Source: an uncultured Gammaproteobacteria bacterium (GTDB taxonomy: Bacteria; Patescibacteriota; Microgenomatia; Daviesbacterales; UBA10151). Taken from it: DNA of 64,000 bases. Location of the stretch: the NCBI GenBank assembly GCA_964625535.1, contig CAZVEX010000003.1, forward strand, positions 55,524 to 119,523. Direction: 5' to 3'. The notes beneath the pieces are model-generated. The model worked only from the letters and a program-made list of their open reading frames with translations. It made no database searches and was not told where the DNA came from. Made by a program: the position numbers and the translations under genes. Each line of letters opens with the position of its first letter. Position 1 is the first letter of the stretch. Positions 29,200-64,000 of this stretch are shown piece after piece.

Positions 29200-29427
29200 A
29201 TGGCTGACAAGTTATCACTTGAGAATTTACCCGACCTTTTAACAGTAAGAGAAGTAGCTGAAGTTTTAAGAGTTTCCCCGTTAACTATTAAAAGATGGGG
29301 TAAACGAGGCAAGCTGCCGGCCATCAGGATTAATTCCCGGGGAGACAGAAGATACAAAAAAGAAGCCGTGCTTTGGTTATTAGGCATTACCCAAAAAGAC
29401 CAGCCTATTAGCACTCCTTCTTTATAG
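29200..29427 (+). CDS. Excisionase-family (HTH_17/MerR-superfamily) helix-turn-helix DNA-binding protein
   Basis: LTVREVAEVLRVSPLTIKRWGKRGKLPAIRINSRGDRRY follows the HTH_17 pattern. It occupies the position usually taken by rpoB after rplL. Confidence 0.6.
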   Translation: MADKLSLENLPDLLTVREVAEVLRVSPLTIKRWGKRGKLPAIRINSRGDRRYKKEAVLWLLGITQKDQPISTPSL

Positions 29428-43749: not shown

Positions 43750-46158
43750 CTAGACTACAAAATTTATAATCCTACCCGGGACATACACGGTTTTTTTCAC
43801 GGTTTTACCGTCGAGAAATTTCTTAATTCTGTCTGACTCAAGAGTCATTTTTTCTACTACTTCTCTATCTCCTTCTATATCTCTTGAGATCGTCCGGGTA
43901 TCCCGAACCTTACCGTTTATCTGAACAACTATAGTAACTTCCTGCTCTTGCAGGTATTTATTATCACTCTTTGGCCAAGACTGCTGATGAATGGAGTATT
44001 TTTCGCCGATTACGGACCATAATTCCTCGGTTATGTGCGGAGCAAAAGAAGCCAGCAGCAACAGAAATGTCTTGTATTCCCCCTTTGTCAGGTTTTCCTT
44101 TTTACTTAAATAATTTAACCATTCCATTAAAGCAGCTACGGCGGTATTAAGCTTAATGTGTTTTATATCCTCTGTCACTTTTTTGATAGTCTTATGCATT
44201 ATTCTTAGATCTTCGTCTGTAATCTGTACCCTGTTACCTGTCACCTTTTCCTGTAATCCCCAAACCCTTTGTAAAAATCGATATGCTCCTTGTATCCTTT
44301 CCGAAACCCATGGTCCTGTACCCTGATATGGCATGAAGAAAGCCACATGAATTCTCACCGCATCTGCCCCGTATTTTTTTACCTCTTTGTCCGGATTGAC
44401 TACATTACCCCTTGATTTACTCATTTTCTCCCCATCCGGCCCCAGGACTATTCCATGATTGATCCTACGCATAGCGTACTCTTCAAAATTAAGCAACCCA
44501 ATATCAAATAAAAACTTGGTGAAAAAGCGCGAATATAAGGTGTGGCCAAGTGTATGCTCTGCACCGCCAAAATAAATATCAACAGGCATCCACTTTTTTG
44601 CTACTTGTGGATCAAAAATTTTATCTTTATTTTGAGGATCCAAATAGCGCAAGAAATACCAGGAATTGTCAAAAAACCCGTCCAAAGTTTCTGAATCCCT
44701 TTTGGCTTTACCTCCGCATTTCGGACATTTGGTATTAATCCAATCCTCTGCAGTTTCCAGAGGGGCCTTACCTTTGGGGGTAAAATCCACCTCATATGGC
44801 AGTTCTATTGGTAAATCCCCCTCCGGCACAGGTACCAGACCACATTTTGGGCAATGAATAATCGGCACCGGCGTCCCCCAATACCTCTGCCTGGACACAG
44901 ACCAGTCCCGCAGATGATAAACAACCTCTGCTTTACCATCCTGGTTTTTCTCCAACTGCGCTGTTATTTGTTGTCTTGCTTCAGCGGAACTCAAGCCGGA
45001 AAACTTGCCTGAATCAAAAAGTATTCCATCCCCTGTAAAAACCTCCTCTAGAGCTTTGATCCGCTCATCTCGTTTCTTATCACCTGTCATTAAAGTGGGT
45101 TTTAAGGGGATCTGGTATTTTTGGGCAAAGGCAACATCCCGCTCATCATGAGCATCACCAAAAAGAGCACCAGTCCCGTATTCCATTAGAGCATAATCTG
45201 CAATCCAAACAGGTATCTCCTCGCCGTTAGCAGGATTAATTGCCCATGCCCCGGAAAATACTCCTGTTTTATCTTTATTCTCTTTCCGTTCTACTTGTGA
45301 TTTCTTTTGTGATCTTTTGATATATTCTTCAACTTCTTTTAATTTCGTCCCGGGCGAAGCTATAAACGGATGTTCCGGTGCCAAAACCAGAAAGGTAGCT
45401 CCGAAAAGAGTATCAACTCTGGTGGTAAAAACTTCTATGACATTTGATGATTCTTTTACTTTAAACTTTATCAGTACACCTTGACTTTTACCAATCCAGT
45501 TATTCTGCCCTTCTTTAACAGCTTGAGGCCAGTCAAGTGTGGAATCTTTATCCCAAAGCAGCCTGTCGGCATATTCTGTAATTTTCAAAAACCACTGGGG
45601 AATTTCTTTTGGAGCAACTTCACTATCGCAGCGCTCGCATTTTCCCTCTACCACCTGCTCGTCTGCCAGCACTGTCTGGCAACTTAGGCACCAGTTGGCC
45701 AGTTTTTTATCCCTGAAAGCAATACTCTTTTTAAACATCTTTAAAAAAATCCATTGATTCCATTTGTAATACTCCGGCAAACAGGTAATTACCTGATGGT
45801 CAAAAGAGAAACTACCCCCCATGGAAGCAAATTGCTGCCTCATAGCTTCAATATTGGACAGAGTCCAGGTTTTGGGATGAATGCCCTTTTTGATAGCGGC
45901 ATTTTCGGCAGGCAAACCAAAAGCATCAAAGCCATTAGGAAAAAAGACATTTAATCCCTGCATCCGCTTCATCCTGGCAAAAATATCAGCCCCGCCAAAG
46001 GTAAACCAGTGGCCCATATGCAGATCCCCGGAAGGATAAGCAAATTCGGCCAGACAATAATATTTGTTTTCTTGCTCCAAACGGGAAGCATAAATTCCAT
46101 CTTCCTCCCATTTTTTCTGCCATTTTGGTTCAATCTGGTTTGGAATATACTTTTTCAT
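43750..46158 (-). CDS. leuS: Leucine--tRNA ligase
   Basis: HMGH (HIGH) and KMSKS motifs, YPSGDLHMGHWFTFGGADIF, the CP1 editing domain, and a length of 802 aa. Confidence 0.95.
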   Translation of the reverse strand: MKKYIPNQIEPKWQKKWEEDGIYASRLEQENKYYCLAEFAYPSGDLHMGHWFTFGGADIFARMKRMQGLNVFFPNGFDAFGLPAENAAIKKGIHPKTWTLSNIEAMRQQFASMGGSFSFDHQVITCLPEYYKWNQWIFLKMFKKSIAFRDKKLANWCLSCQTVLADEQVVEGKCERCDSEVAPKEIPQWFLKITEYADRLLWDKDSTLDWPQAVKEGQNNWIGKSQGVLIKFKVKESSNVIEVFTTRVDTLFGATFLVLAPEHPFIASPGTKLKEVEEYIKRSQKKSQVERKENKDKTGVFSGAWAINPANGEEIPVWIADYALMEYGTGALFGDAHDERDVAFAQKYQIPLKPTLMTGDKKRDERIKALEEVFTGDGILFDSGKFSGLSSAEARQQITAQLEKNQDGKAEVVYHLRDWSVSRQRYWGTPVPIIHCPKCGLVPVPEGDLPIELPYEVDFTPKGKAPLETAEDWINTKCPKCGGKAKRDSETLDGFFDNSWYFLRYLDPQNKDKIFDPQVAKKWMPVDIYFGGAEHTLGHTLYSRFFTKFLFDIGLLNFEEYAMRRINHGIVLGPDGEKMSKSRGNVVNPDKEVKKYGADAVRIHVAFFMPYQGTGPWVSERIQGAYRFLQRVWGLQEKVTGNRVQITDEDLRIMHKTIKKVTEDIKHIKLNTAVAALMEWLNYLSKKENLTKGEYKTFLLLLASFAPHITEELWSVIGEKYSIHQQSWPKSDNKYLQEQEVTIVVQINGKVRDTRTISRDIEGDREVVEKMTLESDRIKKFLDGKTVKKTVYVPGRIINFVV

Positions 46159-46406
46159 ATATACAGTTTAACAAAAGCAACAAGCACAGTAAAGGTAACA
46201 AGATAAAAAAAATTAGAAAGCTTATTACTTGTTACTAGTCACCTGTTACACGGTTTTTTTCACAAGCACAATTTATCCTCTTGTTTGTTATCTTCGATAT
46301 TCTTTGATTTATTTTGTATATTCTATACACTATACACTAGACACTAGACACTACATTTAGCTTTCTGCGGTAATTATCTTGATACTATTTGAAATATTTT
46401 GACCTC

Positions 46407-46482
46407 TTGACAAATTACTCAAATAATTTTATGGTAAGAAGGTATCTCGGACTGAAGCAGACGGCAGTCCGAGATTTTTTAT
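46407..46482 (+). promoter_or_regulatory. Promoter-like TTGACA box followed ~30 nt later by intrinsic-terminator-like hairpin TCTCGGACTG-N11-CAGTCCGAGA + T6
   Basis: Seen directly. The hairpin is followed by a U-run on the plus strand only, and there is no upstream plus-strand gene. It is a candidate attenuator or very short transcript in the 5' region of the ATP synthase operon. Confidence 0.4.
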
Positions 46483-46522
46483 CTTCTATTTGATTTTTAC
46501 CACTTTCCTGTTGTACTTTTAA

Positions 46523-47368
<846 letters not shown>

Positions 47369-47382
47369 ACTCTTGACTTATC

Positions 47383-48063
47383 TTGTCGTATTATCTACTT
47401 ATGTCCAATCTGCCCGTTGATCCGGCTGTTTTAATAGCTTCGGCAATCGCCCTGGTGACCACCATTCTCTATCTCCGTGAATACAACTTGAGAAGAAAGG
47501 ATCACTCTCAAGAGGAAAAAGGCTGGGAAACGCTGCACCAGTCCATCAAAAAATCCCAGGCCATTTTAGGTCAGGCCGAACTGGAAGGAATCAAGGTAGC
47601 CGCCGAAACCAAGTTTGAAACCTCTAAATTAGAAAAAGAATATTCAAGGCAACTCTCGGCAATTATCAATCAGTCTCAAAGCGCCATCACAGCTGCCCAG
47701 AATCAACTGCTACAATTCATGCAGGATTTACAAAAAAGGAGCGAGGAGTTTGAACAAGCCAGCAGAAGTAGCGGACAACAGAGGATTAATCAGCTTTTTG
47801 AAAGATTAGAAACAAAATTGTCTGATTTTTTGATACAAACAGAGCAAAAAACTACCTCCTCTATTGAGTTGGAGCTTAAAGCAACCAGACAACTCCTGGA
47901 TACTTATAAAAGCGGGCAGCTAAAACTGATTGATGAAAATATTATTGCCATGATGGAGCAAACGCTAAACATTGTTTTAGGAAAGAAATTATCCCTAAAG
48001 GACCAGTTAGAACTCGTTTATGAGGCTCTGGAAAGAGCTAAAATAGATAAATTTATAATTTGA
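47383..48063 (+). CDS. atpF: F-type ATP synthase subunit b-like (N-terminal TM + long coiled coil)
   Basis: TM helix AVLIASAIALVTTILYL followed by a ~180-aa charged helical region. Its position before the delta subunit supports the call. Confidence 0.6.
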   Translation: MSYYLLMSNLPVDPAVLIASAIALVTTILYLREYNLRRKDHSQEEKGWETLHQSIKKSQAILGQAELEGIKVAAETKFETSKLEKEYSRQLSAIINQSQSAITAAQNQLLQFMQDLQKRSEEFEQASRSSGQQRINQLFERLETKLSDFLIQTEQKTTSSIELELKATRQLLDTYKSGQLKLIDENIIAMMEQTLNIVLGKKLSLKDQLELVYEALERAKIDKFII

Positions 48064-48075
48064 AATGGCTCTCTT

Positions 48076-48558
48076 ATGGACCAATTACTAAACACTATTT
48101 TAAGGCAAACTTATACTCTAAACCAGCTTAAACATAGGCTTTCTATACTTAAACTCAAATTTTTACAATATTTTTTTGGAACAGAAAAGAAACAAAGCTT
48201 GTTATCCGAAAGCGATTTGATGTGGTTAAAATCACTGCCGCCTGATTTTTCAAAAAACATAAACCAGGATAATGTTTATTCAGTCTTTGAAGATTTAGAA
48301 AAGAAAATAAATTCTATGCCGGTTTTAACCATGTATCTTACCTTTGAACCGGATGAATTAAGTTTAACTCAAATTGGAGAAATGACTAGAAAAACTTTCA
48401 ATAACTTAACGCTTATTTTGGATATAAAATATGATCCAAGACTGCTGGCCGGCGCAGCCTTAAGCTTCAAAGGAATGTACAGAGATTATTCTCTTCGGTC
48501 AAGGATTGGAGAAAGAAAACTGGCAATTTTACAGAGTTTCAAAAAGTTCCTAAGATGA
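48076..48558 (+). CDS. atpH: F-type ATP synthase subunit delta (OSCP)
   Basis: C-terminal LTLILDIKYDPRLLAGAALSFKGMYRDYSLRSRIGERKL matches the OSCP VDPSLIGG...DxS...L pattern. Confidence 0.65.
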   Translation: MDQLLNTILRQTYTLNQLKHRLSILKLKFLQYFFGTEKKQSLLSESDLMWLKSLPPDFSKNINQDNVYSVFEDLEKKINSMPVLTMYLTFEPDELSLTQIGEMTRKTFNNLTLILDIKYDPRLLAGAALSFKGMYRDYSLRSRIGERKLAILQSFKKFLR

Positions 48559-50018
48559 CTACTCCAAATCTAACGCAAGAAATAGGATATGTAGTCTCCA
48601 TACGAGATTTTCTAATCCATTTAAGTGGGTTTCCATCTATTAGAGTAAACGATATTGTTGTTTCGGAATCCGGCAGCAGGGGTTGGATCAACTCCATTAG
48701 CCCAAACCTGGTAGAGGTTTTAATGCTGGATGAAGGAAAAATTACCCCAAAGCAGCAATTTCGACGGACAAGAGATCGCTTGGGACTTCGGGTTGGGGAG
48801 TTTTTGTTGGGACGGGCTATTAACCCTTTGGGCGTACCTATAGACGGAAAAGGGTTGTTGTCAAAAGTTCAGGTTTCGGAAATTCTAGAGCTAGAACAGG
48901 AAGCACCCGGAATTGAAAGCAGACAATTCATCAGTAAACAGTTTTTAACAGGGATCACTTTGATTGATAACCTAATTCCTTTAGGACGAGGTCAGAGAGA
49001 ATTAATTTTAGGAGATGCGCACTCCGGCAAGACCGGATTTTTATTGGATCTAATTATAAATCAAAAAAATACCGGTGTAATTTGTATTTACGCCTCCATC
49101 GGTAAACCCTCCGTTGCAGTTAGAAATTTAATCGATGTTTTAAGAAACAATAAAGCATTAGATTACAGCGTGATTATTGCAGCCTCATCCTCCGAACCAG
49201 CCCCATTAATCTTTCTTACACCCAAAACAGCTTTTACGGTTGCCGAGTATTTTCAAAGAAAAGGCCGAGATGTACTTTTAATTTTAGATGATTTGGGAAC
49301 TCATGCCAAAATTTATAGAGAAATTGCCCTTTTGGGTAACAAAGCTCCAGGAAGAGAGTCTTATCCCGGTGATATTTTTTATCAGCATGCGCATCTTTTA
49401 GAACGGGCCGGAAATTTTTTACCCGAGTTTGGGGGGGGCTCTATCACCGCCCTCCCGGTCATTGAACTTAGCTTAAATGATTTTACTACCTTAATACCCA
49501 CTAATCTAATGTCTATGACAGACGGCCATCTGTTGTTTAAGGCCAGCTTGCACTCTCAAGGACAAACGCCGGCCATTGATATTTCCCTATCTGTTTCCAG
49601 AGTAGGCAGACAGACTCAAGATCGGGTCAGCAATTTACTGTCCATAAAAATAAGGCAAATACTCTCCGAGGCAGCGGATTTAGAGACAATCTCCCGTTTT
49701 TCTTCGGAATTACCTCCTGAAACACAGCTCATTCTACAAAGGCGGGATCAAATCATGGAACTCTTAAAACAAGAGCCTCTGACGCCAACGCCTAAACCAA
49801 TCCAAAACATTTTTTTGGCACTCCCTTTTACCACCTTTATGAAAGGAAAAAATCACATCTTTTTAGAAAAAAACAAAAAAAGCCTGGGGCAGGCTTTTTT
49901 AACTAACCCCGCCCTTTTATCCATCAGTCGATCAATAAAAAATTTGAAAACAGATACGGAGTTGATAAAACTTTTGGAAGGAGTAGGACCAGTTTTGGCA
50001 AAATTGTGCCCAACATAA
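48555..50018 (+). CDS. atpA: F-type ATP synthase subunit alpha
   Basis: Walker A GDAHSGKTG (GDRQTGKT variant). The IPLGRGQRELILGD region is typical of alpha subunits. Confidence 0.85.
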   Translation: MTTPNLTQEIGYVVSIRDFLIHLSGFPSIRVNDIVVSESGSRGWINSISPNLVEVLMLDEGKITPKQQFRRTRDRLGLRVGEFLLGRAINPLGVPIDGKGLLSKVQVSEILELEQEAPGIESRQFISKQFLTGITLIDNLIPLGRGQRELILGDAHSGKTGFLLDLIINQKNTGVICIYASIGKPSVAVRNLIDVLRNNKALDYSVIIAASSSEPAPLIFLTPKTAFTVAEYFQRKGRDVLLILDDLGTHAKIYREIALLGNKAPGRESYPGDIFYQHAHLLERAGNFLPEFGGGSITALPVIELSLNDFTTLIPTNLMSMTDGHLLFKASLHSQGQTPAIDISLSVSRVGRQTQDRVSNLLSIKIRQILSEAADLETISRFSSELPPETQLILQRRDQIMELLKQEPLTPTPKPIQNIFLALPFTTFMKGKNHIFLEKNKKSLGQAFLTNPALLSISRSIKNLKTDTELIKLLEGVGPVLAKLCPT

Positions 50019-50019
50019 A

Positions 50020-52546
<2,527 letters not shown>

Positions 52547-52618
52547 TTCCACTCCTGATCCATTTTGTTCTAAATTTCTGATATAGTTTGTTATATCCCC
52601 TTACTATAATAATAACAC

Positions 52619-52713
52619 TTGACAAACCTATGTAAATCTGTGTACGATGGATTAAGAATCTATGCATGATAAGCAGATTTGCATAGATTTTAGGCAGACG
52701 GAACCTAATTTGT
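52619..52713 (+). promoter_or_regulatory. Candidate promoter (TTGACA ... TACGAT) and 9-bp inverted repeat ATCTATGCA-N14-TGCATAGAT upstream of the giant gene
   Basis: TTGACA at 52620-52625 with a weak -10 about 18 nt downstream. A perfect 9-bp inverted repeat lies ~30 nt upstream of the ATG at 52714. Confidence 0.35.
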
Positions 52714-55700
52714 ATGAAAAATCCGTCTGTCAACTACCTCAAAATTGGTCAAGCCGCCAAGGCTTTAGGCGTTTCCATTGATACCCTCCGAAGATGGGAA
52801 AGGAGTGGAAAAATTGAAACCATCAGAACTCCGGGAGGAACAAGATTATACTCCCTGACCCATCTTAAAAAAATCAATCCTAAATCAGTTCAAGACTTTC
52901 AGGCTACAGGGCAGACTACAGAAGAACTGCTAAAAATCCAGGAAAATCCAGAAAGACTCTATGAGCCAGAGAATCAGAACATCGGATATTCTGATATATC
53001 AGATCTATCCGAAAAGAAAAAATCTTCCCTGGTCAATAAATTCCTGATTGGCACCGGAGTACTTTCAGTCATTACTCTGATCGTCACCTCCTGGATTACA
53101 GCTTCTTACCTGACTCGACCCAAAGAAACAGCACAGTTTTTCAAAAATAACATTGCCACTCCCCTTTTGAAACCGTTTCATATCCTTGCCGAAGAAACAA
53201 TCGCTGTAATTAACCCCAAAAAGGCTAAAGAACTGGGGTTTATTCCTCATGAAAAACCCCCTCCGATACCCTATACCCTAAACCCTAAACCCTCTTTTAA
53301 TGTCCTGGCTGTCACGGCCAGTCCTCAATTTTTAGAGGTCAATAGCGATACTCAAATTAACGGTTCGTTATTTGTGCGTGATAGCATCAATGATCTTATT
53401 TTGGAAGCCACACCATCTGCCTCAACTTTTGAAATGATTTCAGGAGATACCATATTAACTGTAACAAACAGTAGCACAATAGATCAAAACTTATCCACAG
53501 CCTCTTCTCCCAGCTTTGATACGCTTAATCTGACAGCTAACAATAACCAACTAATCTTTCAATCAGGCGGGCCAACCGGTACTTTAACCTGGACCCCAAC
53601 TGCCGCAAGAATCATTACCCTTCCCGATGCCACAACAACCCTGGTGGGAACGGACACTACTCAAACATTAACTAATAAATCGCTATCCGGTTCGTCAAAC
53701 ACTTTTACCAGTATTCCCAACTCCGGCCTATCCAACTCCAAAGTAACAGTCACAGCCGGCACTAATCTTTCCGGGGGCGGAGATGTATCGCTTGGCGGAT
53801 CCATCACTCTAAGCCTGGCATCATCTCCTTCAGTATCCGGAGTCATACAACTGGCAGATGGCACAGCTGCAGCTCCTTCTTTAACTTTCACTAATGACAC
53901 TGACACAGGACTATATCGAATCGGCTCAAACAGCATCGGCTTAATCACCGGTGGCTCTGCCACCTCCGGCATTACCATTAACTCATCCGGTAATGTGGGG
54001 GTGGGAACTATCAGTCCCACCACTGCCTTGTATGTAGTTGGCGCCGGTACCATTACCGGCAACCTGACAGTTGATACAAATGTAGGCATTGGTACTTCTG
54101 TTACCCCTTCTGCCAAGCTGGGAGTGGTCGGAAATGTGGGCATTGGAAATAGCTTCGCCTTTGCCAATGTGCCTGTTAATGGCCTGGCTGTACAGGGTAA
54201 TGTAGGTATTGGCACTACCACTCCTGATTATCCTTTGCATGTAATTGGCAATGTGGGTATTGGTAATTCTGCATTAATAAACGGTTTAACTACAGCGCTT
54301 GGTGGGCTGCGGGTTAACGGATTTTCTGATTTAACTGGTAATGTGGGGATAGGGCAATCATTAACAGTATCCTCTACCGGAGCGTTCAGATTATCCGGAC
54401 AAAACTGTTCCACCTTAACAGGAGGAGGTAAGTTAACCACAGATGCATCTGGTAATGTATTCTGCAGCGCTGATTCAGGTTCTGGAATAACATCAGGTTC
54501 AGGAGTAGCTGGAGCAGTCACTTTCTGGGACAGTGCCAATACTTTATCCAATTCAGTTGCCAACTTTTACTGGGATTCTACTAACTATAGATTGGGTATA
54601 GGTACATCTTCTCCCGGAGGATCATTAATAGTCCAAACCGGTAATGTAGGAATAGGTATATCTGCCCCATCTCAAGTATTACAGGTTAATACTGGAGCCA
54701 ATTCTGTAGTGGTAACAAGTGGTGGCAATGTGGGGATAGGTATTACCACTCCTGATTATCCTTTGCATGTAATTGGTAATGTGGGTATTGGTAATTCTTT
54801 AACAGTCAACAATCTCTCCAATCTGCTGGGAGGACTGCGAGTTAATGGATTTTCTGACTTAACTGGTAATGTGGGGATAGGTGGATCATTAAATGTTTCT
54901 TCTTTATCCACTTTCCTCTCATCCATCCTGGGAGCTGACGGATCAGTTAGTGCTCCTGCATATTCATTTAATCTGGATACGGATACAGGCATATTCAGGC
55001 CGGGAACTAATGCTTTGGGACTGGCCACAGGTGGATCATCAAGATTAACTGTAACAGCAGCAGGACTGATTGGCATAGGTATTACCTCCCCAGCTGCCAC
55101 TTTCCAGGTTAATTCCGGGTCCTCATCTACAGTTATTACCTCAACAGGGAATTTAGGGATAGGCACCACTTCCCCCAGGATGCCATTGGAGGTAGTAGGT
55201 AATGGTACATTTTCTGCCCTGTTTACCAATGGCAATATCGGCATTGGTACCACAGCTCCTGTGGCAAGCTTGTCTGTTGCAGGTAATGTGGGAGTGGGTG
55301 GAACTTCTGCCGGAGCTGCATATAACTTTGATGTCTGGGGAACAGGCAGAATAACAGGAGCCTTAACAGTGGGAGGGAATCTGGGCATTGGTGGAACAGC
55401 CAATATTGACAGTTTAACCTACGGCTTGGGAGGATTAAGGGTTAATGGACTGGCTGATTTAACTGGTAATGTGGGGATAGGTGGATCATTAAACTTAACT
55501 TCGCTTGCTTCATTTAGCTCAAATTTGCTGGTTCAAGGCGGTGATATTGATACTTCTGCCTCCACTTTTAATGTGGCCTCATCAGCTACCACCCTAAATT
55601 TGGCCGGAGGATCATCCAATACAGGATGTACTATTGACGGATCAGGTAATATAACCTGTACCGGCAATATTGGCGGCGGCGGTACCGGTACGCAGGGATT

Positions 55701-58700
55701 TTGGGGCAGAGCCACAACTCCGGTAAATGTAATCTATCCTGCCACTCAAACAGATGTTTTAGGCACATTTGGTAATGTGGGGATAAATACCACTAATCCT
55801 CAAGGGGCATTGGTAGTTTTAACTGGTAATGTAGGTATAGGTATATCTGCCCCATCTCAAGTATTACAGGTTAATACTGGAGCCAATTCTGTAGTGGTAA
55901 CAAGTGGTGGCAATGTGGGGATAGGTATTACCACTCCTGATTATCCTTTGCATGTAATTGGTAATGTGGGTATTGGTAATTCTTTAACAGTCAACAATCT
56001 CTCCAATCTGCTGGGAGGACTGCGAGTTAATGGATTTTCTGACTTAACTGGTAATGTGGGGATAGGTGGATCATTAAATGTTTCTTCTTTATCCACTTTC
56101 CTCTCATCCATCCTGGGAGCTGACGGATCAGTTAGTGCTCCTGCATATTCATTTAATCTGGATACGGATACAGGCATATTCAGGCCGGGAACTAATGCTT
56201 TGGGACTGGCCACAGGTGGATCATCAAGATTAACTGTAACAGCAGCAGGACTGATTGGCATAGGTATTACCTCCCCAGCTGCCACTTTCCAGGTTAATTC
56301 CGGGTCCTCATCTACAGTTATTACCTCAACAGGGAATATAGGTATAGGGATAACTACAGCCAATTCTGCCTTAACAGTTAATGGTGGAGCAGTGATTGGT
56401 ACTGGATATAACTTAACTGCTCCCACCAATGGCCTACTGGTCCAGGGTCTGGTGGGAATTGGTACCACAGCTCCTGTGGTAGCCCTGTCTGTTGCAGGTA
56501 ATGTGGGAGTGGGTGGAACTTCTGCCGGAGCTGCATATAACTTTGATGTCTGGGGAACAGGCAGAATAACAGGAGCCTTAACAGTGGGAGGGAATCTGGG
56601 CATTGGTGGAACAGCCAATATTGACAGTTTAACCTACGGCTTGGGAGGATTAAGGGTTAATGGACTGGCTGATTTAACTGGTAATGTGGGGATAGGTGGA
56701 TCATTGACAGTTTCCGGACCAACCAGACTAAATGGATTAAGTCTAACTCTGGGAGCCGACAGTACAGGTGACATATTTTATAGAGATGCTACCGGTATTA
56801 TTGCCAGACTGCCTATTGGTATTTCAGGCCAGAGTTTAGCCATCTCATCCGGCATACCTACCTGGACCGATACCACCTCCTTTACCTCTGCTGCAGGATG
56901 GGTAGACGCAGGAGCATATTTGAGACTTTTGACCATGGGAGATAATGTGGGGATTGGAACCACTGCTAGTCAAGACCCAATAGGAAAACTTCACTTAAGA
57001 GGCAATGCCGATTCAACAGCGTTAACTTTTGTTACTACCAATAATGCTAATTCTAGTTTTGGATTGTCTGTTTTGGACAGTGGCAATGTGGGTATTGGAA
57101 CTACCTTACCTCAAGGGTCCCTAGTTATCCCTTCCGGTAATGTAGGAATAGGTATATCTGCCCCATCTCAAGTATTACAGGTTAATACTGGAGCCGATTC
57201 TGTGGTGGTAACAAGTGGTGGCAATGTGGGGATTGGCATAACCACTCCTCTTTTCCCTCTTCATGTTTTGGGTAATGTGGGGATTGGATCATCTTTAACA
57301 GTCTCCTCTGCGGCCGCATTAACTACTCTTAACGTATCCGGTATCTCATCTCTTGCCGGTAATGTTGGTATTGGTAATTCTCTAACAGTCAACAACCTCT
57401 CCAATCTGCTGGGAGGACTGCGTGTTAATGGGTTTTCTGACCTGACAGGTAATGTTGGGGTAGGCGGAAGCTTTACGGCTTCCGGACCAACCAGATTAAA
57501 CGGGTTAAGCCTGACTCTGGGAGCCGACAGTACAGGTGACATATTTTATAGAGATGCTACCGGTATTATTGCCAGACTGCCTATTGGTATTTCAGGCCAG
57601 AGTTTAGCCATCTCATCCGGCATACCTACCTGGACCGATACCACCTCCTTTACCTCTGCTGCAGGATGGGTAGACGCAGGAGCATATTTGAGACTTTTGA
57701 CCATGGGAGATAATGTGGGGATTGGAACCACTGTTGGTCAAGATCCTTATGCAAAACTGCACGTCAGAGGAAACGCCACAACCACAGGCCTGTCTTTCCT
57801 CACCACAGACAACAATAATACTCAAAGGTTTGCCATCCTGGATAATGGCAATGTGGGTATAGGCACAACAGCCCCTAATGCCACTTTGTCTATTCAGGGA
57901 AATGTTGGGATAGGGTTTACAGGAGTAAACCAGGTTATCCCCTCTAATGGCCTGGCAGTATCAGGTAATGTAGGTATTGGTGTAACCACTGCTAATTCTA
58001 CCTTAGCTATATCAGGTAATGGAGTTTTTGGAGCAGGATTTGCCGGGATGTCAGCTACCACCAACGGATTATTAGTAGAGGGTAGCGTTGGTATTGGTAT
58101 TTCTGTCCCCTCCCAAACCTTCCAGGTAGGATCTGCAGCTAACTCCTTAGTCTTTACTTCAGGAGGTAATTTGGGTGTAGGTATCACCACCCCCTTAAAT
58201 ACTTTGGATGTGGTAGGTACTACTCAACTAAGAGGAACAGGTGGAGTAGTTGGCTTGGCAGTCACCAATGATGGCAGAGTCGGTATTGGCAGGACCAATC
58301 CGGGTTCAACCTTGGCATTGGCTGTACAGGGTAATGTGGGTATTGGCGTAACTACGGCTAATTCTACCTTAGCTATATCAGGTAATGGAGTCTTTGGTAC
58401 AGGATATGCAGGAATGGCAGGACCAACCAATGGCCTGCTGGTCCAAGGTCTGGTGGGAATTGGTACCACAGCTCCTGTGGCAAGCTTGTCTGTTGCAGGT
58501 AATGTGGGAGTGGGTGGAACTTCTGCCGGAGCTGCATATAACTTTGATGTCTGGGGAACTGGCAGATTAACAGGGGCATTAACAGTAGATGGTAATGTGG
58601 GAGTGGGAGGATCATTAAATGTATCATCTCTTACAACATTATCATCAAATCTGAATGTAAGTGGAGTAATTCTAAATTCTGCCGGTTCCGAAGCTGCCCC

Positions 58701-61700
58701 CTCATACACTTTTAACGGTGATACGGATACCGGCATGCTGGTCCAGGGAGCCAATGACCTTATTCTCGCTACAGCCGGGGTAAAACGCCTTAGGATGGAT
58801 CCTAGTGGCCGATTTGAATTTATTTCAGGAGCTGCTACTTCTGCCAATCCTTTTTATTTTAGTGCCGGTGACATAACTGCGGCCAGCGGAGGAAATGTTT
58901 ATCAATTCAACAGTCCTACTATCACTCATACCAATAATATCACCAATCAGGGAATGGCCTATTTTGCAAATAACACCATCACCTCCTCATCTGCAGTCAC
59001 TGTCACTAATGCCGGCACCATCTGGATAAATGATATCCCTTCCGGGGGAGGCAGCAACACTGTAACCTATTCTGCAGGATTATATGTCAATCAGACAGGA
59101 GGAGGAAACAGGGTAACTAATGGTTATGGAATTTATGTCAATGCCCCAACAGGAGCCACTAATAATTATGCTGCTACTTTTTTGGGAGGTAATGTGGGGA
59201 TAGGGACTTCTTTCCCCTCCCAAACCTTTCAGGTTAATTCCGGAGCAAATACTTTTGTAATTAACTCATCGGGTAATTTAGGAATTGGCACTTCTGTCCC
59301 CAATGCTAAGTTATCCATCCAGGGTAATGTAGGGATAGGATATACAGGAGCCTCTCAAGTAATTCCCTCCAATGGCCTGGCAGTTTCAGGTAATGTAGGT
59401 ATAGGTATAACTACAGCAAACTCTACCCTGTCTGTAGCAGGAGGGGCCCATATAGGCAGTTTAAGACAGGGTATAGCTGCCCCCACTGATGGTCTGTTTG
59501 TAGATGGGAATGTGGGAATTGGGGCTACTACTTCTACTAATCTCTTGGATGTCTGGGGAGCAACCAATATAACAGGTAATCTAACCTTGGGTGGCGTATC
59601 TTTAGTATCGGATGGTACAGCTTCTGCCCCCGGATATTCATTCTCCGGCGATACTAATACAGGATTATATAGATTTGCATCTGATGGAATAGCTTTAATT
59701 ACCGGCGGCATATCCTCAAAATTGCTGTCCTTAAATTCCTCCGGTAATGTAGGTGTGGGAACTACCAGCCCGCAAGGCCCATTACATGTAACAACTGCCT
59801 CCGATGAAGTATTTCTGGTCAAGGGACATCAAACCTTAAGCACCGGTATTACTCTTAATGCGATAGATAATGGAAATAGTGCTAATGTCCCAATAGAATT
59901 TCGGGCAAGTCGTTTTGATTTTGAAGCGGGTAATGTGGGTATTGGGGCAACCACTGCCGCATATAATCTGGATGTTTGGGGAATAGGCAGGATAACTTCT
60001 GCCTTAACAGTGGGAGGGAATTTAGGCATTGGTACTTCTTTAACTGTGGATTCAGGAGTATCTTTGGCTTCTTCTTTACGGGTGGTGGGAAATTCACAAC
60101 TGTCCACTCTGTCTACCTCCGGAGACATTACCAATGCCGGGGTGTTTCTTTCATCTGACGGCACAGCCTCTGCTCCCGGATATTCTTTCTCCGGTGATAC
60201 CAATACCGGTATCTTTAGACCAAGTACTGATGCTTTGGGGCTGACCACAGGTGGTTCATCCAGATTAACTGTAACAGCAGCAGGTTTGGTGGGTATTGGC
60301 ATCACCTCCCCGGCTGCCACGTTCCAGGTTAATTCCGGGGCAAACTCTACAGTCATTAACTCATCCGGGAATGTAGGGATAGGCATGACCTCCCCCACCC
60401 AGCTTTTGGATGTGGCAGGGATTGCCAGATTAAGAGGTTCCGAAGGAACTATTGGATTAGTAGTGGTTGGAGGAGGTAATGTAGGCATTGGCACCACTGC
60501 TCCTGCTGCCAGACTTGATTTAGCAGGAGGACTGGGTTTTGCTCCTCCTTCCAATCCCAGATATATTGGAGGTGCAGATCCGGAAGGAGCTGCCGGAGAT
60601 GACACAATTATCACTTTGTCTCTGGCCGGCCGCTACGGCTATGTGGGTAAATCAAATAATGCCGGTACCTGTTCCTCCTCCGATCGAACCGGCTGTGAGT
60701 TTCAAATCTGGGATCTGTCAGATCCCACCAATCCCTCTTTTGTAGGCGGGGTCGATCTGGGGGCAGCAGGATCAGCTCTTTTTGTGGACGGAAAATATGC
60801 CTATCTGGGCGGGGCTTCCAATACCGGAGCATGTAATGCTTCCACCAGTACGGGTTGTACTGTACGGATTTATGATATATCTAATCCCTCCTCTCCGACT
60901 TATGTCGGAGGAATAAAAACCATCACCAACGACGGCACCGGCTCTCAAGGAATGGGTAACAGTGCTGCTGGTCAACGGCATATTTTTGTTTCCGGCCGCT
61001 ACGCTTATCTGGCCTTGGAGGATGCAACTGCCGGACAAAGCTGTAGCGCTTCCAATCTGGACGGCTGTGAGTTCCAAATTTGGGACATCTCCAATCCCGC
61101 CGCACCAATATCTATCAGCGGGACAGACTCCGGCGGTTCGGGCGATGATGCCAGAGGAGTTTATGTGCAGGGCCGTTATGCTTATCTTTGGAAAAATGCC
61201 AATGCGGGCACCTGTTCAGCAACTGACAAAACAGGTTGCGAAGTGCAAATTTATGATATTGTTAATCCATCCAGCCCGCTTTATATGGGTGGTTATAACA
61301 GCGGTCTGTCGCACTACACTCTGATCGTTTCAGGCCGTTATGCATATACGAATACCGGTACTGGTACCGCCAGTTTTTTGGTGATTGATATTTCCAATCC
61401 TGCCAACCCCACTTTAACTGCCACCGTGAATGCGAGTGTTGCCGGTTATGATATAGCCCTGGCCGGAAGATATCTTTATCAGGTCGGGAACACTGGCAGA
61501 CTGCATGTTTTTGATCTTTCCAACCCCTCCAATCCAATACAGATTGCCAACCCTATAGCTGGAGGAGGAGGATCCAGTTTCGCTGTAGCAGTAAGTGGAA
61601 GATATGTCTGGCTGGGCACCAATTCCAGCAGTACCGGCACCTGTTCCCAGAGTGATTTTACCGGCTGTGAGCTGGAAGTGTGGGATCTGGGAGGATTTGA

Positions 61701-64000
61701 GGGAGGATCGGTGGTAGCTAATGCTTTGGAGGCTGGAAGCTTGCAGGTCAGGGAAAATGCCTATCTTAACAATCAGCTTTATGTGTCTGGAGGAATAAAC
61801 ATAGGAGCAGGAGGTTTGTTATCAAGCGGATCAGTGGGAATAGGGGTATCAACAGGGGTAACAGCCTTAAGAGTAGAACAATTTGGTTTTCAGGGAGTAG
61901 GGTCAACTGCACCTACGGCTATCTTTAATGGAGGGAATGTGGGGATAGGGGCCACCAACTCCCATGTCTTCCCCAATTTAAGCTCCATGCTTTGGGTGGG
62001 AGGTAATGTGGGTATTGGCTGGACAGGAACAGGTACTGCTACTCCAGTTCTTCCCGGCTTAGGATTATCCGTATTTGGTAATGTTGGTATTGGAGCAACT
62101 ACTGCAAACTCTACCCTTTCTGTGGCAGGATCTGCCCATATAGGCAGTTTAAGACAGGGTATAGCTGCCCCTGCCAATGGGTTGTTTGTGGATGGGAATG
62201 TGGGGATAGGGGCTACTACCTCTTCTAATGCTCTGGATGTCTGGGGTAATGCCAGGATTACAGGGGCCTTGACTGTGGGAGGAAATGTAACCCTGTCAGA
62301 TGGTGCTTTAATGGATTTATCAGCTATTAATACTTCTTCCACCACAGAAGGATTGCTTTTACCCCAAGCCACATCCTGTGCTTCCGGTACGGCTGAAGGC
62401 CAGATCTGCTGGGATACTGATAATGACACCCTTTACTTGGGTACAAACGGCAGCCAGGTAACTATAACCGGAGGCAGCCCGGCACTCCATACTATCACCG
62501 CGGCAACCACTACTAACACTATTGCCAATGCCAATAATGCCCAAGTCTGGAACTGGGGGACTTTAACTACTCAAACTGGATTAACCTTTGGCGGTGGTAC
62601 GGCTATGACCACTGGTAGTATTTTTGATTTAGGGTCAGCTACTTATGTTCATACGGCCTTAAATGATATTGGTGAGGTCATAAATATTAACTTCACAGAT
62701 GCTTCAACTAATGCCAACAATGGTGGTACCACGATTGGTTTAAATATAGCCTCAACTATTAATACTTCTGGTGCTGGCACTAAATCTATCACAGGCGTTA
62801 ATATTGCCACTCCTACCAAAACAGCCTGCACAACCGGTGCTTGTACCTGGACAGGTCTGGCAATTGCTGACCCCGGAACACTGGCTAATACCACATTTTA
62901 TGCTGCTACCTTTGCCGGCGGCAACGTCGGCATTGGCTTTACTGCACCTGACAGGTTAACTCAGATAGGATCGGATATAAACATAGTAGGTTCTAATACT
63001 TCACTTTTGGGAGCAGCAGGTAGCCAGTTTGCCATAACCGGAGGATCTGCCACAGGATTACAAAAGAAATTAGTCCTAGGCCTAGATACTACAGATAACT
63101 ATGGAGTAATCCAGGCAGGGAATACTTCAGGGACTAATTATGATTTATCCCTCAATCCTGCCGGAGGAAATATCGGCATCGGGACTACTACTCCTTTAAG
63201 CTTACTGCATCTTGACGGCAATATTGTCAGCATGCAAATCCGTTCCGCGTCAGATACAGCAGGTCAGGGAATTGGATATATTGCTGAACGATCCCGCGGC
63301 ACTCAAGCTGCCCCAACCGCCATTCAAGCTGATGACATGATCATGTCTTTAGCCAGTCGAGGATATGATGGGTCCTCTTTCACTACTCAAGCCGCCATAC
63401 GTTCTTTTGCTTCTCAAAACTTTACTGGTTCTAATAAAGGCACTTATTTAACTTTTTTGACAACACCCAATAATTCCACAACGAATACGGAAAGAATGAG
63501 AATAGACAATGGCGGCAACGTTGGCATTGGGTTTACCTCACCTACCAGATTATTAGAACTGGCTGTGGATGCTAACCCTGCAGGAACTAATGCATCATTA
63601 ATTAATACAGCAGGAACTACCCAATTAGCTTTAACAGGCACCGCAGCAAATGCCCAGAAAAAGTTAGTCCTGGGTATAGATACCACAGATAACTATGGAG
63701 TAATCCAGGCAGGGAATACTTCAGGGACTAATTATGATTTATCCCTAAATCCTGCCGGAGGGAATGTGGGGATAGGGACTACTTCCCCTCTTGCTCCTTT
63801 ACATGTCTGGGGTAATAATACAAATTCTGCCTTCTTCCTAAATGGCAACGTCGGCATTGGGATGACGAGCCCGGGGACACTTCTCCATTTAAAACATACG
63901 GGTGACGCGGCCATTACCCTCGAGGCGGATACGGATAATACCTCCGAAACAGATAACGCCTATATTAGATTCTTGCAGGACAATCGTCTTATCGAATCAG
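52714..64000 (+). CDS. Giant (>3,760 aa, 3'-partial) membrane-anchored surface protein. Architecture: N-terminal MerR-type HTH, single TM helix, huge extracellular region of [10 protein letters not shown] tail-fibre-like repeats, an LVIVD beta-propeller and internal segmental duplications.
   Basis: Own translation in frame 1 from the ATG at 52714, with a stop at 52684 in frame upstream. The frame was checked at 54241, 58441, 60661, 62941 and 63961 and is still open at the window end. N-terminus [45 protein letters not shown] is a MerR HTH. Residues ~109-131 [23 protein letters not shown] form a TM helix. GNVGIG repeats recur every ~20-25 residues. LVIVD-type blades (GRYAYxG...GCExQIWDxSNPxxP) are present. 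The gene is absent from the ORF track because there is no stop in the window. All minus-strand PIPTLP-rich ORFs here are antisense. Confidence 0.8.
   Translation, partial: [3762 protein letters not shown]
54641..56715 (+). repeat. Near-identical ~1.2 kb tandem segmental duplication inside the giant gene
   Basis: 54641-55147 vs 55825-56331 show 1 mismatch seen over ~507 bp. 55246-55500 vs 56461-56715 are near-identical. The blocks are separated by a diverged ~100 bp with a 31-nt indel (offsets 1184 and 1215 nt). Partial third copies lie at 54181-54270 and 57130-57250. Confidence 0.8.
56751..57735 (+). repeat. Second intragenic duplication (offset 768 nt), ~215-260 bp near-perfect
   Basis: 56751-56965 and 57519-57733 are identical (encoding [74 protein letters not shown]). 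This also explains the identical 61-aa antisense ORFs in the track. Confidence 0.8.
60560..61710 (+). repeat. LVIVD-repeat beta-propeller region (about 7 blades) within the giant gene, each blade with a conserved Cys pair
   Basis: Repeated GRYAYVG / GKYAYLG / GRYAYLA / GRYAYLW / GRYAYTN / GRYLYQV / GRYVWLG. Each is followed by ...[24 protein letters not shown]. Confidence 0.7.

What the first reader, a model, noticed from the sequence alone, without database searches (positions are those of the whole stretch)
52714..64000. Unannotated giant gene: MerR-HTH, TM helix, >3,600-aa extracellular repeat protein
Seen in sequence. A single open frame runs from 52714 past the window end (>11.2 kb) and is missing from the supplied ORF list. 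Its cytoplasmic N-terminus is a canonical MerR-family DNA-binding HTH (…TLRRWERSGKI…GGTRLYS…). A single TM helix follows, then an enormous surface region built of GNVGIGTTxP tail-fibre-like beta-repeats and an LVIVD propeller. A membrane-spanning protein that joins a DNA-binding HTH to an adhesin- or tail-fibre-scale ectodomain is not a described architecture as far as I know. Possible roles are a one-component transmembrane signalling regulator (analogous to ToxR/CadC or RsgI-like sensors), a host-attachment protein of an epibiotic small-genome bacterium, or both. A dockerin protein and region-4-only sigma-like proteins occur elsewhere in the window.
Basis: partly seen in the sequence, partly recalled or inferred. 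Interest (0 to 1): 0.85.

Follow-up and report, generated by a model that had tools for sequence, protein, structure and literature searches.

The report
Giant surface fibre with DNA-binding tail
A candidate-phyla (Daviesbacteria-like) bacterium encodes a protein of more than 3,700 residues that joins a small cytoplasmic DNA-binding domain, through one membrane helix, to a huge phage-tail-fibre-like surface fibre, and a conserved repeat in its own promoter suggests the DNA-binding end controls the gene's own expression.

Summary
Frame 52714→64000 is open for 3,762 codons. It encodes a MerR-type winged HTH (Pfam 52 bits, cutoff 28), a disordered linker, one TM helix, about 60 GNVGIG tail-fibre-type motifs and a 7-blade LVIVD propeller. 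It was missing from the ORF list only because it runs off the window end.

The fusion is not an artefact. The same HTH–TM–fibre gene recurs at the same chromosomal position, after the ATP synthase operon, in many Microgenomates MAGs. Complete versions are 569–4,057 aa, and 36 of the top 146 representatives in a library clustered at 50% identity share the N-terminus.

The ectodomain is mosaic and related to Bdellovibrio MAT fibres and phage tail fibres. Orthologs carry the S74 trimerisation chaperone.

New here: the promoter TTGACA-AATCTATGYA-AATCTATGTA-(−10) places two 10-bp direct repeats in the −35/−10 spacer. It is conserved gene-specifically across distant orthologs. The HTH superposes best on BldC, a coiled-coil-less MerR domain that binds direct repeats.

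Best reading: a membrane-anchored adhesin fibre whose cytoplasmic HTH autoregulates its own promoter. DNA binding and any signal coupling are inferred. It is a new variant of transmembrane transcription regulators, and NCBI already auto-names homologs "MerR family regulator".

The parts
52619..52648 (+). Sigma-70-like promoter TTGACA (52619-52624), 18-nt spacer, TACGAT (52643-52648)
   Evidence: Promoter scan, 10 of 12 matches. Conserved in position and sequence upstream of the orthologous gene in about 20 loci.
52625..52644 (+). Two tandem 10-bp direct repeats (AACCTATGTA, AATCTGTGTA; family consensus AATCTATGYA) that fill the -35/-10 spacer. Candidate operator for the gene's own HTH.
   Evidence: This is the only tandem pair of the motif in the 64-kb window. 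The 19-mer TTGACAAATCTATGYAAAT occurs once per locus, always just upstream of the HTH gene. Chance expectation is about 0.05 per 19 kb at up to 3 mismatches.
52657..52689 (+). It contains two more copies of the same motif and forms a stem-loop at the predicted 5' end of the mRNA.
   Evidence: leader fold -28.5 kcal/mol, z = -5.8. Conserved in L002-L005 and L033, with loop length varying from 12 to 23 nt. Absent in distant orthologs.
52694..52729 (+). Conserved GCAGACGGA element and hairpin CAGACGGA / TCCGTCTG that encloses the ATG at 52714
   Evidence: L004 has a compensatory C-G to U-A change, and L014 and L033 have alternative stems. GCAGACGGA lies 7-13 nt before the ATG in most orthologs. 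It is not a generic RBS in this genome.
52714..64000 (+). Partial CDS of the giant protein: 3,762 codons, 3' end beyond the window
52735..52875 (+). MerR-type winged helix-turn-helix, aa 8-54, cytoplasmic
   Evidence: Pfam PF00376 at 52.1 bits. AF2 pLDDT 81-87 with beta-alpha-alpha-beta-beta-alpha topology. Foldseek top hits are all MerR-family DNA complexes, best BldC 6amk at 1.2 A over 47 columns.
52876..53025 (+). Disordered linker of variable length, aa 55-104. There is no MerR coiled-coil dimerisation helix.
   Evidence: pLDDT below 50. Poorly conserved and length-variable in alignment A1.
53026..53115 (+). Single transmembrane helix, aa ~105-134, with KKK on the N-terminal (cytoplasmic) side
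   Evidence: Kyte-Doolittle peak of 2.07, the only clear peak in 3,762 aa. Modelled as a long helix, aa 100-134.
53116..54042 (+). Juxtamembrane helices, a Pro-rich spacer (PPPIPYTLNPKP) and the conserved N-terminal ectodomain module (NVLA..FLEVNSDTQINGSL...TLTWTPT..TLPD..QTLTNK), aa 135-443
   Evidence: Alignment A1. 61.5% identity to L003 over aa 1-443 only. 36 of the top 146 listed representatives have HTH, TM and this module.
53989..60513 (+). Gly/Thr/Ser/Asn-rich fibre shaft built of GNVGIG-type motifs arranged in duplicated modules
   Evidence: PHROG tail-fibre families phrog_28766 and phrog_18345.
60619..61713 (+). Seven-blade LVIVD beta-propeller, aa 2636-3000. Five blades carry a CysX7Cys loop.
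   Evidence: Pfam PF08309 at 58.8 bits. Blade list. Low-confidence AF2 model (pLDDT 54, pTM 0.52) whose PDB matches are all propellers.
61714..63999 (+). Distal fibre modules related to Bdellovibrio MAT fibres and phage tail fibres. The protein continues beyond the window.
   Evidence: PDB sequence hits 8OML (Bd1334) E = 1.5e-9, 8OL4 (Bd2439) and 8ON4. phrog_9942 tail fibre E = 1.9e-33 at aa 3517-3712. The conserved family C-terminal module has not yet appeared by the window end.

Best explanation
The gene encodes a giant type-II (N-in) membrane-anchored surface fibre of a Daviesbacteria-like CPR bacterium. From the membrane outward it has a conserved base module, a long tail-fibre/MAT-like shaft that is probably trimeric, a 7-blade LVIVD propeller and further fibre modules. 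Most likely it acts as a variable adhesin that binds a partner or host cell, or another surface. On the cytoplasmic side, a roughly 50-residue flexible linker tethers a minimal MerR-type winged HTH that lacks a coiled coil and effector domain, as in BldC. I propose that this HTH binds the two 10-bp direct repeats AATCTATGYA in the -35/-10 spacer of the gene's own promoter, plus two further copies in the leader of close relatives. The amount or state of the fibre in the membrane would then feed back on transcription of this very costly gene. That makes it a transmembrane one-component autoregulator. A conserved hairpin around the start codon probably adds control at the level of translation or mRNA stability. 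Shown here: the ORF, the domains, the single TM segment, recurrence of the architecture, synteny, ectodomain mosaicism and gene-specific conservation of the promoter repeats. Inferred: trimerisation, adhesion, binding of the HTH to the repeats, the direction of regulation, and any coupling to an external signal.
For: Architecture. Recurrence of HTH-TM-fibre in diverged orthologs: complete genes of 3,440 aa (L003), 2,115 aa (L009), 4,057, 4,025 and 3,711 aa, and 36 of the top 146 listed hits in a library clustered at 50% identity. Conserved position immediately after atpC, with AtpD identity of 63-79%. GC3 equals that of housekeeping genes. Fibre and adhesin nature: PDB hits to Bdellovibrio MAT fibres, which are surface-displayed trimeric prey-binding fibres (PMC10769870); Peptidase_S74 in orthologs; an ectodomain wholly replaced between species whose AtpD is 79% identical; Kelch, LamG or LVIVD heads in different members. 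DNA-binding end: every top fold hit is a MerR-family protein solved on DNA, and the best fit is BldC; BldC lacks the coiled coil and binds direct repeats head-to-tail (PMC5859096). Tandem direct repeats fill the promoter spacer, occur once per locus and only upstream of this gene family, and persist in orthologs with only 33-40% N-terminal protein identity. Some orthologs carry two HTHs in tandem. No other HTH of this type is present in the window.
Against: No experiment shows DNA binding. The same HTH sequence type occurs in other phyla without the motif, so HTH invariance is a subfamily trait and does not indicate co-evolution with the operator. HTH-operator co-variation is only hinted at: the D-to-N change in L008 and L106 coincides with AATCTACYCA repeats. 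The spacer is 18 nt, not the 19-20 nt typical of MerR-activated promoters. A conserved spacer could be read by another factor. Only about 64 kb of this genome and roughly 20-kb loci were visible, so a wider regulon or other sites cannot be excluded. HTH domains can serve protein-protein roles, for example RodZ-MreB (own knowledge). Trimerisation and adhesion rest on homology covering roughly 115-200 aa stretches and on orthologs, and the C-terminus of this protein was not seen. A cell-proximal signal-peptidase-type cleavage after the TM helix (…ITAS/YL…) cannot be excluded; it would separate the fibre from the HTH-TM stub.
Confidence: 0.55

Rival explanations
1. Contact- or force-sensing receptor. 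Binding of the fibre to a host or partner cell changes the oligomeric state or geometry of the cytoplasmic HTHs, or triggers juxtamembrane/intramembrane proteolysis that releases the HTH. Attachment would then switch this gene, and possibly others, on or off. Functionally this would resemble ToxR/CadC or RsgI, or eukaryotic Notch.
For: It has the same architecture as single-pass transmembrane transcription regulators, which make up 56% of TTRs (PMC10269533). Conserved juxtamembrane helices at aa 136-173 have pLDDT of about 70. The HTH and its operator-like repeats are conserved while the ectodomain varies, as expected if variable ligands feed one conserved output.
Against: No recognisable sensor, protease site or partner gene was found. 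The ectodomain is thousands of residues long, so allosteric transmission along it is hard to imagine. The motif was seen only at the gene's own promoter in all sequence available. Simple autoregulation explains the same data with fewer assumptions.
Confidence: 0.2
2. The HTH is a DNA or nucleoid tether rather than a regulator. It would anchor the chromosome, or this locus, to the membrane at the fibre insertion site. That could support coupled transcription-translation-insertion of an mRNA of at least 11.3 kb, or chromosome positioning in the manner of RacA.
For: RacA, a chromosome-anchoring protein with a MerR-like wHTH, is among the fold matches (5i44). Binding sites lie at the gene's own promoter. 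Transertion has been proposed for membrane-protein loci (PMC9977878, listed).
Against: Sites inside the -35/-10 spacer would interfere with RNA polymerase, which is more typical of regulation. No dispersed sites were seen. This reading is not clearly distinguishable from autoregulation with the present data.
Confidence: 0.1
3. The HTH no longer binds DNA. It serves as a cytoplasmic protein-interaction, oligomerisation or topology-determining domain, as RodZ uses its HTH to bind MreB. The conserved promoter repeats would be recognised by some other factor or sigma.
For: There is a precedent for HTH-TM proteins with non-DNA roles (RodZ; HTH_25+DUF4115 entries appear among the 'TTRs'; the MreB interaction is from own knowledge).
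Against: Pfam, NCBIfam and fold matches are all to DNA-bound MerR-family domains, and the canonical TLRRWE...R.Y signature is kept. The HTH gene is the only DNA-binding domain consistently linked in cis to the motif. Sigma factors do not normally constrain spacer sequence.
Confidence: 0.1
4. Assembly or annotation artefact. The HTH-TM gene and the fibre gene would really be separate, or repeat-driven misassembly would have created the giant frame.
For: Exact internal repeats of 501 and 220 nt could mislead short-read assemblers. Many homologous contigs break inside the gene.
Against: The HTH-TM-ecto junction is conserved in dozens of independent assemblies and species. Complete single ORFs of 2,115-4,057 aa exist on contigs up to 1.13 Mb. 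Diverged repeats show purifying selection in this frame. No stop occurs in 3,762 codons.
Confidence: 0.03

Closest known systems
Transmembrane transcription regulators (TTRs; ToxR, CadC, TcpP and others; census of Demey et al. 2023, PMC10269533)
   Same: A cytoplasmic DNA-binding domain is joined by a single TM helix to an extracytoplasmic region. MerR and MerR_1 domains occur among catalogued TTRs, 386 and 350 of 50,302.
   Different: ToxR and CadC use OmpR-type Trans_reg_C domains, which are absent here, and have small periplasmic sensor domains. Here the ectodomain is a fibre of more than 3,600 aa. Neither Patescibacteria nor S74/LVIVD partner domains appear in the held census text or tables.
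BldC (Streptomyces; PDB 6AMA/6AMK; PMC5859096)
   Same: A minimal MerR-like wHTH without a coiled-coil or effector domain. It gives the best structural superposition (1.2 A, TM 0.81, 32% identity). BldC binds direct repeats head-to-tail, and this gene's promoter carries tandem 10-bp direct repeats.
   Different: BldC is a 68-residue soluble protein with a regulon. The NCBIfam HTH_BldC score here is 34.7 against a cutoff of 77. The repeat sequence is unrelated, and here the domain is membrane-tethered.
Bdellovibrio MAT (mosaic adhesive trimer) fibres and phage tail fibres or tailspikes with the S74 chaperone (PMC10769870)
   Same: Sequence-related shaft modules (8OML E = 1.5e-9; PHROG tail fibres). 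Both have a mosaic, swappable distal part and S74 and non-S74 C-terminal types among family members. MATs are surface-displayed.
   Different: MATs are about 1,000 aa with a signal peptide and a conserved ~130-aa beta-rich N-domain whose cell anchor is unknown. This protein is about four times longer, is anchored by its own TM helix and carries a cytoplasmic HTH. It also has a family-specific conserved C-terminal module (…LTPPDILLA…FNWWIV).
IS607-family serine recombinase N-terminal HTH and MerR-TOBE proteins
   Same: These are the closest sequence relatives of the HTH outside the family, at 50-68% identity over about 45 aa (NF033518).
   Different: There is no resolvase (PF00239) or TOBE domain here, and no mobile-element context. 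The gene sits at a conserved chromosomal position.
RodZ (HTH-TM-periplasmic domain)
   Same: Same topology: N-terminal cytoplasmic HTH, one TM helix and an external domain.
   Different: RodZ has an XRE-type HTH_25 that binds MreB (own knowledge) and a small DUF4115 ectodomain. None of these domains is detected here.

Membership tests
MerR-family winged-HTH DNA-binding domain (PF00376/PF13411) | Profile score above the curated threshold | tested here: met
   PF00376 52.1 bits (cutoff 28.2); PF13411 36.9 bits (cutoff 21.6)
MerR-family winged-HTH DNA-binding domain (PF00376/PF13411) | wHTH fold that superposes on MerR-family domains | tested here: met
   AF2 pLDDT 81-87 for aa 8-54. All top Foldseek hits are MerR-family DNA complexes, including BldC at 1.2 A rmsd.
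Classical MerR transcription regulators (MerR, CueR, SoxR, BmrR) | Long antiparallel coiled-coil dimerisation helix after the wHTH | tested here: not met
   aa 55-104 are low-confidence or disordered and variable in length. Equivalog models score far below their cutoffs.
Classical MerR transcription regulators (MerR, CueR, SoxR, BmrR) | C-terminal effector-binding domain | tested here: not met
   No such domain is detected; a TM helix and the fibre follow instead.
Classical MerR transcription regulators (MerR, CueR, SoxR, BmrR) | Palindromic operator within an over-long (19-20 bp) -35/-10 spacer | tested here: not met
   The spacer is 18 nt and holds direct repeats, not palindromic ones.
BldC family | wHTH only, with no coiled coil | tested here: met
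BldC family | Small soluble protein; NCBIfam NF033787 score above its cutoff | tested here: not met
   34.7 bits against a cutoff of 77. The domain is fused to a TM helix and more than 3,600 aa of fibre.
BldC family | Head-to-tail oligomerisation on DNA direct repeats | not testable with these tools
   Suitable tandem 10-bp direct repeats exist in the gene's own promoter, but binding was not tested.
Transmembrane transcription regulators (as defined in PMC10269533: DNA-binding domain plus at least one TM region) | DNA-binding domain and TM region in one polypeptide | tested here: met
Transmembrane transcription regulators (as defined in PMC10269533: DNA-binding domain plus at least one TM region) | Regulates transcription from the membrane | not testable with these tools
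   Only indirect evidence: a conserved, gene-specific operator-like motif.
ToxR/CadC-like receptors | OmpR-type Trans_reg_C DNA-binding domain | tested here: not met
   No PF00486 hit
RsgI-like anti-sigma sensors | N-terminal anti-sigma (RsgI_N) domain | tested here: not met
   No such Pfam or NCBIfam hit; the N-terminus is a MerR HTH.
MAT / tail-fibre-like trimeric fibres | Sequence homology to MAT or tail-fibre shaft modules | tested here: met
   8OML E = 1.5e-9, 8OL4 and 8ON4; phrog_9942 E = 1.9e-33
MAT / tail-fibre-like trimeric fibres | Signal peptide followed by the conserved ~130-aa beta-rich N-domain | tested here: not met
   The N-terminus is HTH, linker and TM helix. Homology of the base module to the MAT N-domain was not tested.
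MAT / tail-fibre-like trimeric fibres | S74 chaperone or alternative tip at the C-terminus; trimer | tested here: inconclusive
   The C-terminus lies outside the window. Orthologs P0119 and L009 score on PF13884. L082 and L083 show S74-like motifs by eye only. Trimerisation was not testable.
LVIVD repeat beta-propeller (PF08309) | Profile match and propeller fold | tested here: met
   58.8 bits against a cutoff of 20.2. Seven blades. The low-confidence model matches only propellers.
Sortase-anchored (LPXTG) surface proteins | C-terminal LPXTG motif, hydrophobic segment and charged tail | tested here: inconclusive
   Not visible in the window. Complete orthologs end in …FNWWIV(E/Q)… with no LPXTG and no hydrophobic tail.

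The most novel reading that the evidence does not exclude
The fibre is an adhesion receptor that reports host or partner-cell contact, or mechanical load, directly to the chromosome. Engagement or loss of the giant trimeric ectodomain would change clustering, or cause proteolytic release, of the BldC-like HTHs. These would then switch the gene's own promoter, and possibly an attachment programme. This would be a bacterial analogue of Notch-type receptor-transcription factors and a first handle on how ultra-small CPR episymbionts sense their hosts.
Probability: 0.15. Interest if true: 0.9.

Novelty: new variant of a known kind. Interest (0 to 1): 0.68.

Why it matters
CPR/Patescibacteria have tiny genomes and few recognisable regulators. 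How they recognise and respond to host cells is largely unknown. This family spends 1-2% of a roughly 1-Mb genome on one gene (two in some genomes) that physically links a variable, phage-tail-fibre-like adhesin to a DNA-binding domain, and it carries a deeply conserved, gene-specific promoter element. If the HTH binds that element, this is a compact sense-or-count-and-regulate device built from a surface fibre. It would also be an experimentally tractable entry point (EMSA, reporters, cryo-ET) into CPR surface biology. It further shows one way MAT/tail-fibre-type fibres can be anchored to a cell, which remains unresolved for the Bdellovibrio MATs.

Tried and rejected
1. Extending the contig. 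Exact DNA from the window end was not found in genome contigs or metagenome contigs. An exact AtpC look-up gave only a 1.2-kb Logan contig. The true C-terminus therefore remains unseen and was inferred from relatives.

2. Rfam, permissive scan of 46100-53000: no family matches the leader hairpins.

3. GCAGACGGA as a Shine-Dalgarno-like RBS: rejected. Other genes in the window have AT-rich, SD-less upstream regions.

4. HTH/operator co-evolution as proof of binding: rejected as evidence. The same HTH sequence type occurs in other phyla without the motif, and my search patterns selected for it. Only a weak hint of co-variation remains (L008, L106).

5. Prophage or HGT origin: rejected. GC3 is 0.357 against 0.367 for the atpA gene, and the chromosomal position is conserved.

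6. Functional linkage to ATP synthase: not supported. In L105 and L020 the gene follows the divergent LeuRS-like gene with no atp operon, so the neighbourhood is positional.

7. Structure prediction of the ectodomain base as a monomer gave low confidence and was not interpreted.

8. Four literature searches for the fused architecture found nothing specific. The library covers open-access papers only, so absence is not proof.
Full report
OBSERVATION. Translation of 52714-64000 (+) gives 3,762 codons with no stop. The frame is closed by a stop at 52684-52686, and ATG 52714 is the first start codon after it. The ORF is missing from the mechanical ORF list only because that tool omits ORFs that run off an end of the source.

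Pfam finds a MerR HTH at aa 10-46 (PF00376, 52.1 bits, cutoff 28.2), together with MerR_1 and HTH_17, and LVIVD repeats (PF08309, 58.8 bits). NCBIfam agrees on MerR-type HTHs. The best match is HTH_BldC, below its cutoff, and all full-length MerR equivalogs score far below theirs.

Hydropathy shows one clear TM segment at aa ~105-134 (peak 2.07), with KKK on its N-terminal side. This places the HTH in the cytoplasm and everything after the helix outside. The remainder is Gly/Thr/Ser/Ala/Asn-rich and has 60 GNVGIG-type motifs. Its cysteines mostly occur as closely spaced pairs.

IS IT REAL? The gene contains exact internal DNA repeats of 501 and 220 nt. Module copy number in this assembly is therefore uncertain. 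Diverged copies differ mostly at synonymous sites (16:5 and 10:3), which shows selection on this frame.

More importantly, the HTH-linker-TM-"NVLA..FLEVNSDTQINGSL" junction recurs in many independently assembled, diverged homologs. A scan of one genome per GTDB species found the full N-terminal module in a dozen Daviesbacteria, Microgenomates and Patescibacteria MAGs. Complete ORFs were 3,440 aa (L003), 2,115 aa (L009), 656 aa and 569 aa. Most of the others run off contig ends.

An exhaustive search with aa 100-350 found 1,020 hits. Among the top 146 representatives (library clustered at 50% identity), 36 have the HTH plus TM N-terminus, with lengths up to 4,057 aa. P0119 (4,057 aa) is seen in NCBI, ENA and JGI, on contigs up to 1.02 Mb. 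The fusion is therefore genuine and defines a family.

NCBI already names one 2,452-aa member "MerR family DNA-binding transcriptional regulator".

ECTODOMAIN. PHROGs assigns the repeats to tail-fibre families (phrog_9942 E = 1.9e-33, phrog_18345, phrog_28766). A sequence search of the PDB matches aa ~3520-3640 to Bdellovibrio Bd1334, Bd2439 and Bd2133 (8OML E = 1.5e-9, 8OL4, 8ON4, 8OND). These are the "mosaic adhesive trimer" (MAT) fibres: surface-displayed, trimeric prey-binding fibres with S74 and non-S74 ends. Their own cell anchor is unknown (PMC10769870).

Orthologs of the window protein carry Peptidase_S74 by Pfam (L009, P0119). L082 and L083 show S74-like motifs by eye.

All complete family members end in a conserved C-terminal module (…LTPPDILLA…FNGxVTID…FNWWIV) with no LPXTG and no hydrophobic tail. 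That module has not appeared by the end of the window. Relatives sharing the window's last modules continue for a further 1,260-2,400 aa. The full protein is therefore probably longer than 4,200 aa.

The LVIVD region has seven blades at aa 2636-3000, and five of them carry a CysX7Cys loop. A low-confidence single-sequence model (pLDDT 54, pTM 0.52) matches only beta-propellers in the PDB.

The ectodomain is mosaic. Against L003, only aa 1-443 align (61.5% identity), although AtpD is 79% identical. Other members carry Kelch or LamG-like heads. GC3 equals that of the atpA gene (0.357 against 0.367), so the gene is native.

CONTEXT. In nearly all loci the gene lies directly downstream of atpC, the last gene of the F1Fo ATP synthase operon. 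Where that operon is absent, the gene follows the divergent LeuRS-like gene (L105, L020). One contig carries two giant paralogs (4,025 and 3,711 aa) flanking the atp operon, plus a third, short MerR gene. The locus is therefore positionally conserved, and some genomes hold a small repertoire.

CYTOPLASMIC END. AlphaFold models aa 8-54 as a beta-alpha-alpha-beta-beta-alpha winged helix (pLDDT 81-87). It is followed by a disordered linker of about 50 residues and then the TM helix. All top Foldseek matches are MerR-family proteins in DNA-bound structures. The tightest fit is BldC (6amk: 1.2 A over 47 columns, TM 0.81, 32% identity), and RacA, GlnR and CadR also match.

There is no coiled-coil dimerisation helix and no effector domain. 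The protein is therefore not a classical MerR regulator. BldC is the precedent for such a minimal domain: it is monomeric in solution and oligomerises head-to-tail on DNA direct repeats (PMC5859096).

CIS ELEMENTS (new here). The 167-nt atpC-HTH intergenic region is more conserved than the protein. It contains a promoter, TTGACA-18-TACGAT. The spacer of that promoter is filled by two tandem 10-bp direct repeats (window AACCTATGTA, AATCTGTGTA; family consensus AATCTATGYA).

The 19-mer TTGACAAATCTATGYAAAT occurs once per locus, on the coding strand, about 50-320 nt (mostly 75-150 nt) upstream of the HTH gene. This holds in about 20 loci, including orthologs with only 33-40% N-terminal protein identity. 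It is unique in the 64-kb window. A degenerate version is present in L105 and L106. Chance expectation is about 0.05 per 19 kb at up to 3 mismatches.

This repeat lies downstream of the -10 element, so it is also a 5'-terminal mRNA stem-loop.

A second hairpin, CAGACGGA/TCCGTCTG, encloses the start codon. The whole leader folds at -28.5 kcal/mol (z = -5.8). L004 has a compensatory C-G to U-A change, and L014 and L033 have alternative stems. This favours an RNA-level role for the second hairpin. GCAGACGGA is not a generic RBS in this genome. Rfam has no matching family.

INTERPRETATION. The repeats in the spacer are not transcribed, and they sit where MerR-family proteins bind. They are direct repeats, as BldC-type domains prefer. 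The only DNA-binding domain consistently linked to them is the one encoded immediately downstream. Some orthologs even carry two HTHs in tandem.

I therefore propose that the membrane-tethered HTH binds its own promoter. A trimeric fibre would supply three HTHs. This would give feedback control of a very costly surface fibre, and the start-codon hairpin would add post-transcriptional control. The direction of regulation, and any dependence on fibre engagement, are unknown.

Caveats. The same HTH sequence type occurs in other phyla without the motif, so HTH invariance is not evidence of co-evolution. No binding data exist. Only limited genome sequence could be scanned.

RIVALS. The alternatives are a contact- or force-sensing receptor-regulator, a DNA or locus tether (RacA-like, or supporting transertion), a non-DNA role for the HTH (as in RodZ), and an assembly artefact, which is largely excluded. 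All are laid out with their tests in the structured fields.

KNOWN OR NEW? The general class, a DNA-binding domain plus a TM helix, is established, and MerR-type members are counted in the TTR census (PMC10269533). MAT and tail-fibre-like surface fibres are also established (PMC10769870). I found no description of their fusion, of this Microgenomates family, or of its promoter repeats. The search covers open-access literature only. I class it as a new variant of a known kind.

Noticed in passing
window 46448-46480: Just upstream of the ATP synthase operon there is a perfect 9-bp stem (CTCGGACTG/CAGTCCGAG) with the motif GCAGACGG in its loop, followed by a T-run. It lies downstream of a TTGACAAAT-type -35 element. 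The same motif sits before the giant gene's ATG, and in a similar hairpin-plus-T-run in L020. GCAGACGGA with up to 1 mismatch is over-represented in the window (16 found against 6.6 expected). Its function is unknown.
   Followed up: partly
L003 20444-21152; L085, L086 3856-6105, L087: A conserved gene of about 750-790 aa encoding a Wzy_C (O-antigen-ligase-like) plus TPR membrane protein lies immediately downstream of complete orthologs. It might glycosylate the Ser/Thr-rich fibre. The window ends before the equivalent position.
   Followed up: partly
L106 (ENA k141_1442, 36.6 kb): Two giant MerR-HTH fibre genes (4,025 and 3,711 aa) flank the ATP synthase operon on one contig, and a third, 192-aa MerR-HTH gene lies downstream. 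The 3,711-aa product also has a precomputed Intein_splicing Pfam hit.
   Followed up: no
L005, L013, L020; P0002, P0006, P0018, P0125, P0154, P0168, P0177: Several family members have two MerR HTH domains in tandem before the TM helix.
   Followed up: partly
window 54652-55152 = 55837-56337; 55271-55490 = 56486-56705: Exact internal DNA repeats of 501 and 220 nt lie within the gene. They could reflect recent duplication or gene conversion, or they could be a source of copy-number error in a short-read assembly.
   Followed up: yes
L005, L007, L013, L014, L016, L020 (record titles): Several 'binchicken' MAGs titled 'uncultured Gammaproteobacteria bacterium' carry this CPR-type locus. L005, L013 and L016 also have a Daviesbacteria-like atp operon. 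The taxonomic labels are probably wrong.
   Followed up: no
L009 16739-21049: Downstream of the 2,115-aa ortholog lies another large surface-protein gene (more than 1,437 aa) with four Laminin_G_3 domains and DUF2341.
   Followed up: no
window 29233-29328 (+): A weak tblastn match (E = 0.005, 37% over 32 aa) to the HTH. It may be another small HTH ORF and was not examined.
   Followed up: no
window 43750-46158 (-): The 802-aa ORF divergent from the atp operon is conserved in synteny across the loci. It matches the position of the gene called leucyl-tRNA synthetase in L105.
   Followed up: partly
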